Shown in pieces: positions 26,965 to 53,242 of a DNA stretch of 59,292 bases. Both the position numbers and the translations under genes were made by a program. How positions within the stretch are numbered: position 1 is the first letter of the stretch; each line of letters starts with the position of its first letter. This DNA comes from a virus (Duplodnaviria; Heunggongvirae; Uroviricota; Caudoviricetes): IMG/VR virus record IMGVR_UViG_2850784384_000007; one strand, written 5' to 3'. The notes under the pieces are model-generated. The model was given only the letters and a program-made list of their open reading frames with translations, did not search any database and was not told the origin of the DNA.

Positions 26965-28012
26965 ACAATGGGTTACCGCCGCCAGAAAAGGGCTCGGTAC
27001 TCCTGGTTCCCGCACGGTGGCTGAACTGGAATCTGAAATTCTGCAACTGCGTAAGGCGTTAAATGAAGCTCGCCTTGAGCGCGATATATTAAAAAAATCA
27101 ACAGCGTATTTTGCACAGGAGTCGCTGAAAAATACGCGTTAATCGAACAATGGCGACAACAATTTCCCATTGAAGCGATGTGTCAGGTATTTGGTGTATC
27201 CAGGAGCGGTTATTACAACTGGGTACAGCATGAACCCTCAGACAGAAAACAAAGTGATGAGCGGCTAAAACTGGAGATTAAGGTGGCACATATCCGCACT
27301 CGCGAAACATATGGAACCCGGCGGCTCCAGACGGAGCTGGCAGAGAATGGCATCATCGTTGGTCGTGACCGACTGGCACGTCTTCGTAAGGAGCTGAGGC
27401 TACGCTGTAAGCAGAAACGCAAGTTCAGAGCGACTACGAACCCGAACCACAATCTGCCAGTTGCGCCAAATCTGCTGAACCAGACGTTCGCTCCTACAGC
27501 ACCAAATCAGGTCTGGGTGGCGGACCTGACGTATGTTGCTGGCATCAAAGATGTTTATACGTGCGAAATTGTCGGCTACGCCATGGGAGAGCGCATGACA
27601 AAAGAGCTGACAGGTAAAGCCCTGTTTATGGCGCTCAGGAGCCAGCGCCCACCTGCCGGGCTAATCCACCACTCTGATCGAGGTTCACAGTACTGCGCAT
27701 ACGATTACCGGGTCATACAGGAGCAGTCTGGTCTGAAAACATCAATGTCGCGTAAAGGTAACTGTTACGACAACGCTCCGATGGAAAGCTTCTGGGGAAC
27801 GCTGAAAAATGAGAGCCTGAGCCACTATCGTTTTAATAACCGGGATGAAGCCATCTCAGTAATACGGGAATACATTGAGATTTTCTACAATCGTCAGCGT
27901 CGTCACTCTCGTCTGGGGAATATCTCCCCGGCAGCCTTCAGGGAAAAATATCATCAGATGGCTGCTTAAAAAAAGAACAAATGGTAGTGTCCGCTATTGC
28001 CAGTACACCTCA
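26965..28012 (+). mobile_element. IS600 copy 2, 5'-truncated (begins at IS600 position ~190), 27-bp deletion variant
   Basis: Opposite orientation to copy 1; preceded by 11 bp (26954-26964) that continue copy 1 in the minus orientation; ends ...CCAGTACACCTCA at 28012. Confidence 0.85.
27178..27969 (+). CDS. IS600 OrfB, 263-aa variant lacking 9 codons
   Basis: Identical to the 272-aa form except WVADLTYVA-GIKDVY replaces WVADLTYVATQEGWLYLAGIKDVY. Confidence 0.85.
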   Translation: MCQVFGVSRSGYYNWVQHEPSDRKQSDERLKLEIKVAHIRTRETYGTRRLQTELAENGIIVGRDRLARLRKELRLRCKQKRKFRATTNPNHNLPVAPNLLNQTFAPTAPNQVWVADLTYVAGIKDVYTCEIVGYAMGERMTKELTGKALFMALRSQRPPAGLIHHSDRGSQYCAYDYRVIQEQSGLKTSMSRKGNCYDNAPMESFWGTLKNESLSHYRFNNRDEAISVIREYIEIFYNRQRRHSRLGNISPAAFREKYHQMAA

Positions 28013-28192
28013 GACCCTGGGTACTTTCTTCATGAAACTGCGGTGTTCGAGTTTGCGATATTTCTTACAGGGGAACGCAAGCCCCTCCGCCTCCGCTTTG
28101 GATTTCCGATCAGCATTAATGTAATCCACCATCTCAAGACTGCTCATGGTCGGGTATTCGCCAGAAGGAAGAACGGTTAATGATTTGTTCAT
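28010..28192 (-). pseudogene. phage protein N-terminal fragment (possibly Rha/antirepressor-like), 3'-truncated by IS600
   Basis: 60-aa ORF MNKSLTVLPSGEYPTMSSLEMVDYINADRK... runs directly into the IS600 end; family assignment uncertain. Confidence 0.35.
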
Positions 28193-28394
28193 GTCGGTAT
28201 TTCCTTTAGAAAGTTGAGCCTGTTCGCACAGAAAAGCCGTCCCCGAGAGGTCCTCACCTATACGGCAGTTCTCAGGCTCAGCTTTCTGAAAGACTCGGGA
28301 TTGTTACGCGCTGCGATGCGCGGTTTACTGCGGACATATAAAAGCCCCGCAAGTGCGAGGCTCATTAAATGGACTTTGTGATTTGCAAAAAAAT

Positions 28395-28862
28395 TTATTT
28401 CAGGCACTGAGTCCTGATGTACTCCTGAAGCATTCTCAATGCTGTCTGGTCGCTGATGATTCCGTCCCGGATACCGAGAACGTTTCGTCCAGCAACTGGA
28501 GAGAGTTCGACGGTGGCATCATTGCCCATGCCGGAGGCGCTGGAGGTTTCGGCTGAGGATGGCACAGGGCATTTTCCTTTGACGAGCACCCGACCACCAT
28601 TATCAAGCTTGCGCCGAAGAGCATCATTTTCAGCTTTCGCATCAGCTAACTCCTTCGTGTATTTAGCATCGAGTGCATCAGCATCACGCTGGCGCTGCTG
28701 CATGTCAGTAATGGTTGCGTTCGCCAGCTTCAGTTCTCCGGCGTTTTTGTCGCGCTGCTCTTTGTAGGTAATGGCGTTATCACGGTAATGATTAACAGCC
28801 CATGACAGGCAGACGATGATGCAGATAACCAGAGCGGAGATAATCGCGGTGACTCTGCTCAT
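28395..28862 (-). CDS. i-spanin Rz
   Basis: [34 protein letters not shown]... near-identical in its N-terminal half to lambda Rz as recalled; overlaps endolysin stop. Confidence 0.85.
28436..28642 (-). CDS. o-spanin Rz1 (lipoprotein embedded in +1 frame of Rz)
   Basis: [23 protein letters not shown]... with lipobox VVGC and Pro-rich stretch PKPPAPPAW, as in lambda Rz1. Confidence 0.7.
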
Positions 28863-29392
28863 TGATCTATCCCCCAACAGGCTAATGCGCTTTCCTGGTC
28901 ACGACGAATAACCTGTCCATAGCAGTTATTTGAACGTATGCGGCAATCGCGCCCAACATCTTTTATCCACCAGCGAATCGCCTCGCATGCGCCCTTACGA
29001 TCACCGGCATTCAGCCGCTTATAAAACGTCGACGGGAAACACTTACCGGGGCCAATGTTATAGGGGCAAAATGACGCTATACCCGCTTTCTGGGGTTCGG
29101 TCAGAGGTACTTTAATATTGCGCTCCACCCATGCCAGCGCCTTATCACGTTCAATAGCGTTAACCTGGTCACATTTTTCCTTCGACAGCTTCATTCCCGG
29201 TATGACAGGCTTACCATCCACCATTGTGGCACCACGACAGATGGTCCATATGCCAGAACCATCACGGTATGCCGTTGTGTGATTACCCTCTTTTTCGTTC
29301 AGAAACTGGTCAAGTATCTGGGGAGCAGACGCGCCTGCGGCAATCAGCGCCAGAACAGCAGCCGACAGGCCGTATTTGATTTTTGCGCTCAT
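28859..29392 (-). CDS. endolysin R, lysozyme with N-terminal signal-anchor-release (SAR) domain
   Basis: 177 aa; N-terminal weakly hydrophobic Gly/Ala-rich segment [20 protein letters not shown] followed by T4-lysozyme-like catalytic region (E..Y.D..G.WTIC.G). Confidence 0.8.
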
Positions 29393-29457
29393 GGATATTT
29401 ATCAGGATTTATCGGCAACAAATAACGAGCCAACTTATATACGCCTTTTAAGATAAG

Positions 29458-51556: not shown

Positions 51557-51572
51557 AAATGGAGCTACGGAT

Positions 51573-51854
51573 ATGAACCCTATGCTTGATTATTGTTTTA
51601 CCTCTGCACCTCAGCAGACCATAACACACACCGGAATCAAAAATTTGTTATGGATAATCAAAAAAAACCTCCAGCAGAAAGGTGATCCCGATTTAATTCC
51701 CTGTGCTTATGGCCTGTGTGACAGACAAGTAAGCCCTGATAAGGCTTACACTGCTGAACTTATTTACATGCACGGAACCATGATGAGGAAAAAGAAACGC
51801 AAATATTGTAGTGAAATCTGCGCCGAAAAAGACCAGATGGCACACGAACTTTAA
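51573..51854 (+). CDS. hypothetical small Cys-containing protein
   Basis: 93-aa ORF immediately downstream of the Rha gene. Confidence 0.35.
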   Translation: MNPMLDYCFTSAPQQTITHTGIKNLLWIIKKNLQQKGDPDLIPCAYGLCDRQVSPDKAYTAELIYMHGTMMRKKKRKYCSEICAEKDQMAHEL

Positions 51855-51928
51855 TTAACTGACTATTCGAAACTGAATTTATGCCAGCAATGGCAGGGAT
51901 TCGCTCAACCTTAATTAAGGAGAAAAAC

Positions 51929-52005
51929 ATGAACACCAATTATGAAGCCACTGTTGCAACTACTGATAACATTGTTCACGAGGTTTACCTGGAAGGAAAG
52001 CATAT
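51929..52005 (+). pseudogene. 5' fragment of an unknown gene truncated by IS600
   Basis: AAGGAG RBS then ATG; MNTNYEATVATTDNIVHEVYLEGKHIE then the IS600 terminus. Confidence 0.3.
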
Positions 52006-53242
52006 TGAGGTAGCCTGAGTTTAACGGACACTCCTTCCTGAAATAGAATGGCATCAGAAGGAGCTAATAATGAGCAGAAAAACCCAACGTTACTCTAAAG
52101 AGTTCAAAGCCGAAGCTGTCAGAACGGTTCTTGAAAATCAACTTTCGATCAGTGAAGGCGCTTCCCGATTATCTCTTCCTGAAGGCACTTTAGGACAATG
52201 GGTTACCGCCGCCAGAAAAGGGCTCGGTACTCCTGGTTCCCGCACGGTGGCTGAACTGGAATCTGAAATTCTGCAACTGCGTAAGGCGTTAAATGAAGCT
52301 CGCCTTGAGCGCGATATATTAAAAAAATCAACAGCGTATTTTGCACAGGAGTCGCTGAAAAATACGCGTTAATCGAACAATGGCGACAACAATTTCCCAT
52401 TGAAGCGATGTGTCAGGTATTTGGTGTATCCAGGAGCGGTTATTACAACTGGGTACAGCATGAACCCTCAGACAGAAAACAAAGTGATGAGCGGCTAAAA
52501 CTGGAGATTAAGGTGGCACATATCCGCACTCGCGAAACATATGGAACCCGGCGGCTCCAGACGGAGCTGGCAGAGAATGGCATCATCGTTGGTCGTGACC
52601 GACTGGCACGTCTTCGTAAGGAGCTGAGGCTACGCTGTAAGCAGAAACGCAAGTTCAGAGCGACTACGAACCCGAACCACAATCTGCCTGTTGCGCCAAA
52701 TCTGCTGAACCAGACGTTCGCTCCTACAGCACCAAATCAGGTCTGGGTGGCGGACCTGACGTATGTTGCTGGCATCAAAGATGTTTATACGTGCGAAATT
52801 GTCGGCTACGCCATGGGAGAGCGCATGACAAAAGAGCTGACAGGTAAAGCCCTGTTTATGGCGCTCAGGAGCCAGCGCCCACCTGCCGGGCTAATCCACC
52901 ACTCTGATCGAGGTTCACAGTACTGCGCATACGATTACCGGGTCATACAGGAGCAGTTTGGTCTGAAAACATCAATGTCGCGTAAAGGTAACTGTTACGA
53001 CAACGCTCCGATGGAAAGCTTCTGGGGAACGCTGAAAAATGAGAGCCTGAGCCACTATCGTTTTAATAACCGGGATGAAGCCATCTCAGTAATACGGGAA
53101 TACATTGAGATTTTCTACAATCGTCAGCGTCGTCACTCTCGTCTGGGGAATATCTCCCCGGCAGCCTTCAGGGAAAAATATCATCAGATAGCTGCTTAAA
53201 AAAAGAACAAATGGTAGTGTCCGCTATTGCCAGTACACCTCA
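52006..53242 (+). mobile_element. IS600 copy 4 (1237 bp, 27-bp deletion variant); orfA 52070-52372, orfB 52408-53199
   Basis: Same termini as copy 3; OrfB 263 aa; no target duplication. Confidence 0.9.

What the first reader, a model, noticed from the sequence alone, without database searches (positions are those of the whole stretch)
27178..53199. Three of five IS600 copies share an identical 27-bp in-frame deletion in the transposase gene
Copies at 26965-28012, 39415-40651 and 52006-53242 encode a 263-aa OrfB lacking TQEGWLYLA immediately after the first catalytic Asp region (WVADLTYV); copies at 24564 and 55420 encode the 272-aa form. The same deletion in three dispersed copies means the variant spread, either mobilised in trans by intact copies or by gene conversion. 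It is probably catalytically impaired.
Basis: seen in the sequence. Interest (0 to 1): 0.5.

Follow-up and report, generated by a model that had tools for sequence, protein, structure and literature searches.

The report
Defective IS600 allele spread by gene conversion
Three of the five IS600 insertion sequences in this Shigella flexneri prophage region carry one identical 27-bp deletion that cuts into the transposase catalytic core; comparing strains shows it was copied into IS600 elements already in place by recombination between copies, an ordinary if neatly documented process.

Summary
The window holds five IS600 copies. B, C and D lack the same 27 bp. A and E keep it. The 272-aa form is the reference: the intact sequence occurs in 669 plasmid records, and IS600 occurs in 3,487 of 5,426 complete E. 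coli genomes, whereas the deletion junction occurs in none of either. The deleted allele was seen only in S. flexneri-type chromosomes, where the 263-aa protein is on 37 contigs. NCBI names its fused 376-aa product "ISSfl10 family", so it appears to be catalogued already.

The deletion removes residues 121-129, the β1-β2 hairpin next to catalytic D116. IS911 and IS629-like relatives conserve this segment. Loss of activity is inferred, not tested.

Mechanism of spread: four window sites (B, C, D, E) carry the intact allele in some S. flexneri strains and the deleted allele in others, with the same junctions. Site D keeps its private SNP in both forms. Orthologous IS copies differ at 10 of 1,264 positions where flanks differ at 0 of 5,226. 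This points to gene conversion between resident copies. There is no positive evidence for trans-mobilisation. A copy beside amn, with a perfect ATG duplication, is a candidate founder. Interest is low to moderate.

The parts
24564..25647 (-). IS600 copy A. It is 5'-truncated, covering IS positions 181-1264, and keeps the 27 bp at 25039-25065. OrfB is 272 aa (24607-25425) with a private L32P change.
25648..26954 (+). IS3-family element, 1307 bp, inserted into copy A with a GTG duplication. I name it IS629/IS1203-like from memory of its terminal sequence. RefSeq.5%-identical copies 'IS3 family transposase'.
26958..28012 (+). IS600 copy B. It is 5'-truncated from IS position 183 and carries the 27-bp deletion (junction GC at 27538-27539). 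OrfB is 263 aa (27178-27969).
39415..40651 (+). IS600 copy C. Full length, 1237 bp, with the 27-bp deletion (junction 40177-40178). orfA is 39479-39781 and orfB is 39817-40608 (263 aa). The flanks are GAC and CTG, so there is no target duplication.
52006..53242 (+). IS600 copy D. Full length, 1237 bp, with the 27-bp deletion (junction 52768-52769). orfA is 52070-52372 and orfB is 52408-53199 (263 aa, with private S->F and M->I changes). The flanks are TAT and GCC.
55421..56683 (-). IS600 copy E. Full length, 1263 bp, with the 27 bp present at 55895-55921. orfA is 56317-56619 and orfB is 55463-56281 (272 aa, with private A96V and A271T changes). The flanks are ATG and TAT.

Best explanation
The 27-bp deletion is one mutational event in an IS600 element of the Shigella flexneri lineage. 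It left a copy with intact ends, orfA and frameshift site, but with an OrfB/OrfAB transposase missing residues 121-129 (ATQEGWLYL). These residues form the end of β1, the hairpin turn and the first half of β2 of the RNase-H-like DDE core, directly after catalytic D116. The protein is therefore most likely inactive; this step is inferred.

The allele then spread within S. flexneri chromosomes mainly by non-reciprocal homologous recombination (gene conversion) between dispersed IS600 copies. Conversion overwrote the intact allele in IS600 elements that were already sitting at their sites. That each site carries both alleles among strains is shown. That the deleted allele replaced the intact one, and not the reverse, is inferred. 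Conversion probably also runs the other way and restores the 27 bp.

The three deleted copies in the window (B, C, D) are such converted residents. The copy beside amn has a perfect ATG target duplication. It is the only deleted copy found in two genomes whose D and E sites are intact, so it is a candidate for the original mutant. This last step is inferred.
For: 1. Single origin.
- The end points are identical in every deleted copy.
- Only 2 nt (GC) of microhomology flank the deletion.
- The junction is absent from 5,426 complete E. coli genomes and 72,556 plasmids.
- IS600 itself matches 9,581 places in 3,487 of those genomes.
- The intact 50-mer matches 1,166 places in 669 plasmids.

2. Host range.
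- The exact 263-aa protein is named 'IS600 ORF2 [Shigella flexneri]' on 37 contigs.
- The canonical 272-aa protein is on 333 contigs from several species.
- Part of the window is 100% identical over 6.8 kb to the assembly record LR213452.1. That record carries the 263-aa protein, which NCBI names as S. flexneri.

3. Both alleles occur at fixed sites.
- Site D has identical 20-nt flanks on both sides. It is intact in L013, L015 and L018, and deleted in L008, L014, L016, L019-L022 and the window.
- Site E is intact in 10 loci and the window, and deleted in L008.
- At site C's right junction, S. flexneri CP000266.1 is intact and the window is deleted.
- Site B is a full-length intact copy with a GAC/GAC duplication in L031. 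It is intact in the rearranged form in L030, and deleted in L003, L011, L028, L029 and the window.

4. Conversion signature.
- The site-D private SNP 1212A is kept in both intact and deleted D copies.
- The orthologous E copies of L013 and L015 differ at 10 of 1,264 positions while 5,226 bp of non-IS flank differ at 0 (Fisher p = 8e-8).
- The differing positions are polymorphisms shared with paralogous copies.

5. Candidate founder.
- The amn-site copy has an ATG|IS|ATG duplication in L001, L002, L004 and L007.
- The scan of species-representative genomes found one junction each in CP182556.1 and CP178302.1, both at amn.
- CP178302.1 has intact D and E sites (L018).

6. Likely loss of function.
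- The Pfam rve score drops from 90.6 to 68.2 bits.
- The segment aligns with WTGKRWAYL in IS911 and STWRGFVYV in the IS629-like OrfB, and T122 and Y128 are nearly invariant.
- The AlphaFold model of the intact protein places β1 at 112-122, β2 at 125-134 and β3 at 139-146, with pLDDT of 82-88 in the core.
- That model matches retroviral integrase cores (ASV integrase 1asv, TM 0.74).
- The model of the deleted protein has lower core confidence (67-77) and forces conserved T118-Y119 into a turn.
Against: - The direction of change at each site was not rooted on a strain phylogeny. Some intact/deleted differences could be restorations, not spread.
- L030 and L028 differ at site B only by the 27 bp. 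That case therefore has no flanking marker proving a conversion tract.
- I could not read whole S. flexneri genomes. The share of deleted copies per genome, and the state of the amn, pfl and YCII sites in other strains, are unknown.
- Transposition in trans is not excluded for those sites.
- Loss of catalytic activity rests on structure prediction and conservation only.
Confidence: 0.78

Rival explanations
1. The deleted copies are non-autonomous elements that multiplied by transposition, with intact IS600 copies in the same cell supplying transposase in trans.
For: - The ends, orfA and frameshift site of the deleted copies are intact.
- Intact copies are present in the same genome.
- The amn-site deleted copy has a perfect 3-bp ATG duplication.
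- Deleted copies occur at several other sites (pfl/LysR, YCII/ispA) whose state in other strains I could not examine.
Against: - All four sites that could be compared between strains (B, C, D, E) are occupied by an intact copy at the same junction in other strains.
- At site B the 3-bp duplication belongs to a full-length intact copy (L031).
- None of the window's full-length deleted copies has a target duplication.
- The amn duplication is equally explained by the deletion arising in place.
- From established knowledge of IS911 (my own knowledge, not tested here), IS3-family transposases act preferentially in cis.
Confidence: 0.12
2. The same 27 bp is lost repeatedly and independently at each site because the sequence is a deletion hotspot.
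For: L030 and L028 differ at site B by the 27 bp alone, with no other marker.
Against: - Only a 2-nt GC repeat flanks the deletion.
- The junction is absent from 9,581 IS600 matches in 3,487 E. coli genomes and from 1,166 plasmid copies.
- A hotspot would be expected to show up there as well.
Confidence: 0.03
3. The 1237-bp form is a fully autonomous, active IS in its own right (as the separate name ISSfl10 might suggest) and spread by its own transposase.
For: - NCBI gives the 376-aa product its own family name, ISSfl10.
- The reading frames are otherwise intact and the DDE residues are retained.
Against: - The deletion removes the β1-β2 hairpin adjoining D116 and shortens the D-D spacing from 60 to 51 residues.
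- The segment is kept in all aligned relatives down to 35% identity.
- The rve score and model confidence both drop.
- The fixed-site polymorphisms do not require transposition.
Confidence: 0.05

Closest known systems
IS600 (IS3 family; Shigella and E. coli)
   Same: - At least 99% nucleotide identity over the whole element.
- The same TGAGG...CCTCA ends.
- The same orfA, A7 frameshift site and orfB.
- Copies annotated IS600 in pO157, pWR100-type and pCP301 plasmids carry the same sequence across the deletion site.
   Different: The variant is 1237 bp instead of 1264 bp. OrfB is 263 aa instead of 272 aa and lacks ATQEGWLYL after D116. It was found only in S. flexneri-type chromosomes.
ISSfl10 (ISfinder/NCBI name)
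   Same: NCBI names the 376-aa OrfAB that has exactly this 9-aa deletion 'IS3-like element ISSfl10 family transposase [Shigella flexneri]'. This applies to all four such proteins listed (P0113-P0116); P0113 and P0116 were read and carry the deletion. None of the listed 385-aa proteins has that name; those named to element level are called IS600 family.
   Different: I could not open the ISfinder entry, so its length and sequence are unconfirmed. In the literature ISSfl10 appears only as an annotation label, including in E. coli and S. sonnei, where tools probably apply it to ordinary IS600.
Concerted evolution (gene conversion) among multicopy insertion sequences
   Same: Copies at orthologous sites exchange sequence patches with paralogues. 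As a result the IS diverges faster than its flanks, and an allele can move between copies without transposition.
   Different: Here the transferred marker is a presumably inactivating in-frame deletion. It is seen in both states at four named sites among sequenced strains.

Membership tests
IS600 (IS3 family) | Near-identity to IS600 copies annotated in reference plasmids and genomes | tested here: met
   Identity to RefSeq 'IS3-like element IS600 family transposase' loci is 99.1-99.8%. The intact 50-mer is present in the IS600 copies of pO157 Sakai and of S. flexneri M90T and 301 plasmids.
IS600 (IS3 family) | orfA and orfB overlapping in -1 phase with an A-rich slippery site | tested here: met
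   orfA is 100 aa. TTA AAA AAA G lies in the orfA frame at IS position 314, and orfB is in the -1 frame. Frameshifting itself was not assayed.
IS600 (IS3 family) | DDE catalytic core with the family's usual strand order and D-D spacing | tested here: not met
   This row refers to the deleted copies. D116, D176 and E212 are retained, but residues 121-129 (β1 end, hairpin, half of β2) are missing and the D-D spacing is 51 instead of 60. The intact copies A and E meet the feature.
IS600 (IS3 family) | 3-bp target site duplication | tested here: inconclusive
   Present at the amn-site deleted copy (ATG) and at the intact site-B copy in L031 (GAC). Absent from all three full-length window copies C, D and E, as expected after IS-IS recombination.
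ISSfl10 | Transposase identical to the one NCBI names ISSfl10 | tested here: met
   P0113 and P0116 (376 aa, ISSfl10 family) contain WVADLTYVAGIKD, the same deletion.
ISSfl10 | Match to the ISfinder reference entry (length, ends) | not testable with these tools
   ISfinder is not among the available collections.
Allele spread by gene conversion | The same insertion site (identical junctions) carries different alleles in different strains | tested here: met
   Sites D and E, the right junction of site C, and site B.
Allele spread by gene conversion | Site-specific markers are retained outside the exchanged tract, and the IS diverges more than its flanks | tested here: met
   SNP 1212A is kept in both intact and deleted D copies. 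IS differences are 10/1,264 against 0/5,226 in the flanks.
Non-autonomous element mobilised in trans | A deleted copy with its own duplication at a site that is empty, not intact-occupied, in related strains | tested here: inconclusive
   Only the amn copy has a duplication. I could not retrieve that site from strains lacking the deleted copy.

The most novel reading that the evidence does not exclude
The deleted OrfAB keeps its N-terminal DNA-binding and multimerisation parts. It could therefore act as a dominant-negative partner or end-binding competitor of intact IS600 transposase. If so, an allele that spreads by gene conversion would progressively damp IS600 activity in S. flexneri, amounting to self-silencing of an IS family. 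The only support is by analogy: IS911 OrfAB truncated before the catalytic domain still binds IS ends and forms synaptic complexes (PMC1636345, abstract seen).
Probability: 0.1. Interest if true: 0.55.

Novelty: already known. Interest (0 to 1): 0.3.

Why it matters
This is mainly useful for annotation and method.
- Copies labelled ISSfl10 and IS600 in S. flexneri appear to be two alleles of one element that replace each other at fixed sites. Counts of "ISSfl10 insertions" therefore should not be read as transposition events.
- IS-typing tools that treat the two names as separate elements will mis-score strain differences.
- The case is also a clean natural example of an apparently inactivating allele moving through an IS family without transposition. 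This matters for models of how IS expansions in Shigella decay.

Tried and rejected
- I suspected that B's right flank (GAC) and C's left flank (GAC) were the two halves of one original insertion. A joined 90-mer matched E. coli genomes only over the B-flank half. L031 shows that B has its own GAC/GAC duplication with a different left flank. The idea is rejected as a chance match.
- A sequence search of the Protein Data Bank with the 272-aa OrfB gave no hit. A fold search was used instead.
- My first exact-protein look-up of copies A and E used wrong minus-strand coordinates and reported them absent. This was corrected.
- The exact OrfB of copy E is not indexed by the look-up of encoding contigs. 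I reached sites D and E through the neighbouring DUF4376 gene instead.
- The QueH look-up returned few contigs, but it did give the CP000266.1 comparison for site C.
- Literature searches for IS600 with '27-bp deletion', 'gene conversion' or 'in-frame deletion' found nothing relevant.
- The AlphaFold model of the deleted protein is reported but is not treated as proof of inactivity.
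Full report
**Observation**

A repeat search and a five-way alignment show five IS600 copies in the window.
- A: 24564-25647 (-)
- B: 26958-28012 (+)
- C: 39415-40651 (+)
- D: 52006-53242 (+)
- E: 55421-56683 (-)

B, C and D lack the same 27 bp, GCCACACAGGAGGGATGGTTGTACCTC. A and E keep it, at 25039-25065 and 55895-55921. The junction reads GACGTATGTTGC|TGGCATC in all three deleted copies, with only a 2-nt GC ambiguity. OrfB is 263 aa in B, C and D and 272 aa in A and E. The lost residues are ATQEGWLYL (equivalently TQEGWLYLA) after WVADLTYV.

**Which form is the reference**

A 48-mer across the junction matches nothing in 5,426 complete E. coli genomes or in 72,556 plasmids. 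A 50-mer of the intact sequence matches 1,166 places in 669 plasmids, including IS600 of pO157 Sakai and of S. flexneri M90T and 301 plasmids. The element as a whole matches 9,581 places in 3,487 E. coli genomes, and the full-length matches listed are split in two around the 27 bp. The canonical 272-aa protein is on 333 contigs of several species, and the 263-aa protein is on 37 contigs, all named S. flexneri.

**Where the window comes from**

Window 24178-30969 is 100% identical to the assembly record LR213452.1. That record carries the 263-aa protein, which NCBI names as S. flexneri. The surroundings are IS-riddled lambdoid prophage remnants, including terminase GpA, lysis genes, a DnaB-like helicase, Rha/Ash and a Q-like antiterminator.

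**Prior naming**

Among homologues of OrfB, the four 376-aa fused OrfAB proteins are named by NCBI 'IS3-like element ISSfl10 family transposase [Shigella flexneri]'. The two I read (P0113, P0116) carry exactly this deletion. None of the 385-aa proteins listed has that name; those named to element level are called IS600 family. Papers mention ISSfl10 only as an annotation label. I could not consult ISfinder, but the variant appears to be catalogued already.

**Effect on the protein**

The Pfam rve score falls from 90.6 to 68.2 bits. In an alignment with relatives down to 35% identity, the segment aligns to WTGKRWAYL in IS911 and STWRGFVYV in the IS629-like element, and T122 and Y128 are nearly invariant. 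Only the 263-aa form lacks it.

An AlphaFold model of the intact OrfB has core pLDDT of 82-88. It places β1 at 112-122 (D116), β2 at 125-134, β3 at 139-146 and β4 at 170-173 (D176 follows), with E212 in helix 206-223. The model matches retroviral integrase cores and the TnsB and IstA transposases. The deletion thus removes the end of β1, the hairpin and half of β2, and shortens the D-D spacing from 60 to 51 residues. The model of the deleted form has lower core confidence (67-77, with no residue at or above 90) and a re-registered hairpin. Inactivity is a strong inference, but it is not shown.

**How it spread**

I retrieved the same chromosomal sites from other S. flexneri assemblies.

Sites D and E are defined by identical 20-nt flanks on both sides.
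- D is intact in L013, L015 and L018.
- D is deleted in L008, L014, L016, L019-L022 and the window.
- E is intact in ten loci and the window, and deleted in L008.

At the right junction of site C, CP000266.1 is intact and the window is deleted.

Site B appears in three states.
- L031 has a full-length intact IS600 with a GAC/GAC duplication.
- L030 has the rearranged form with the 27 bp present.
- L003, L011, L028, L029 and the window have the rearranged form without the 27 bp.

The SNP patterns fit conversion.
- Site D's private SNP 1212A is present in both allelic states.
- Non-IS flanks are almost invariant among these strains, with 0-3 SNPs in 5.2 kb.
- The E copies of L013 and L015 nevertheless differ at 10 of 1,264 positions (p = 8e-8), at positions that are polymorphic among paralogues.

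This is the signature of gene conversion between dispersed copies. Recurrent deletion is unlikely, given the 2-nt microhomology and the absence of the junction from thousands of IS600 copies elsewhere.

**Transposition**

The only deleted copy with a target duplication is beside amn (ATG|IS|ATG; L001, L002, L004, L007). The scan of species-representative genomes found one junction each in CP182556.1 and CP178302.1, both at amn. CP178302.1 has intact D and E sites (L018). That copy is therefore a plausible founder, but the deletion could have arisen there in place. No case of deleted-versus-empty was found. The pfl and YCII sites could not be compared between strains. Mobilisation in trans is not excluded, but it is not needed to explain the data.

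**Verdict**

This is a real, single-origin and probably inactivating IS600 allele of S. flexneri. It appears to be named already (ISSfl10). It spread among resident IS600 copies chiefly by gene conversion. It is an ordinary kind of event, well documented in this region.

Noticed in passing
window 24564-28012: Copies A and B form a head-to-head IS600 near-palindrome, with an IS629-like element (25648-26954, GTG duplication) at its centre. Compared with L031, where B is full length, the window lacks about 1.86 kb. The loss comprises B's first 182 bp, the intervening genes and most of A's left part, joined at an AGG microhomology.
   Followed up: partly
window 53676-54925 (also 38109-39358 and 42364-43613): There are three IS911 copies, 99% identical to RefSeq 'IS911 family' loci. 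The copy between IS600 D and E is absent from all eleven other S. flexneri loci that contain both sites (L008, L013-L016, L018-L022). L008 shows the empty site CTTCAGGGGGAAGG, so this is a strain-specific recent insertion.
   Followed up: partly
window 27098 and 52328 (IS position 323): Copies B and D share a G-to-T change at the base immediately 3' of the A7 slippery run (AAAAAAAG to AAAAAAAT). It changes OrfA A86S and the first codon read after the -1 shift. Any effect on frameshifting is unknown.
   Followed up: no
window 52003-52005 and 55418-55420: D's left flank and E's right flank are both TAT, in IS orientation. The two copies are inverted, about 2.2 kb apart. This suggests an old inversion by recombination between them, which split an original TAT duplication. 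All strains examined share this arrangement.
   Followed up: partly
window 55421-56683 (copy E): E has an A6 run instead of A7 just past the orfB stop, which makes it 1263 bp. It also has two private amino-acid changes (A96V, A271T). This exact OrfB is on only 6 contigs.
   Followed up: partly
L007 2614-3835; E. coli hits H43-H46: Other IS600 length variants exist. The amn-site copy in CP004057.1 lacks 15 bp, mainly a gap in the alignment around IS positions 319-335 next to the frameshift site, and some E. coli copies span 1247 bp instead of 1264 bp.
   Followed up: no
L002 and L018 (CP178302.1): A chromosome titled 'Escherichia coli strain ECMA0423' shares the ipaH/DUF4376 neighbourhood, the IS600 D and E sites and the amn-site deleted copy found in the S. 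flexneri chromosomes. By these loci it looks like a Shigella flexneri-type genome.
   Followed up: no
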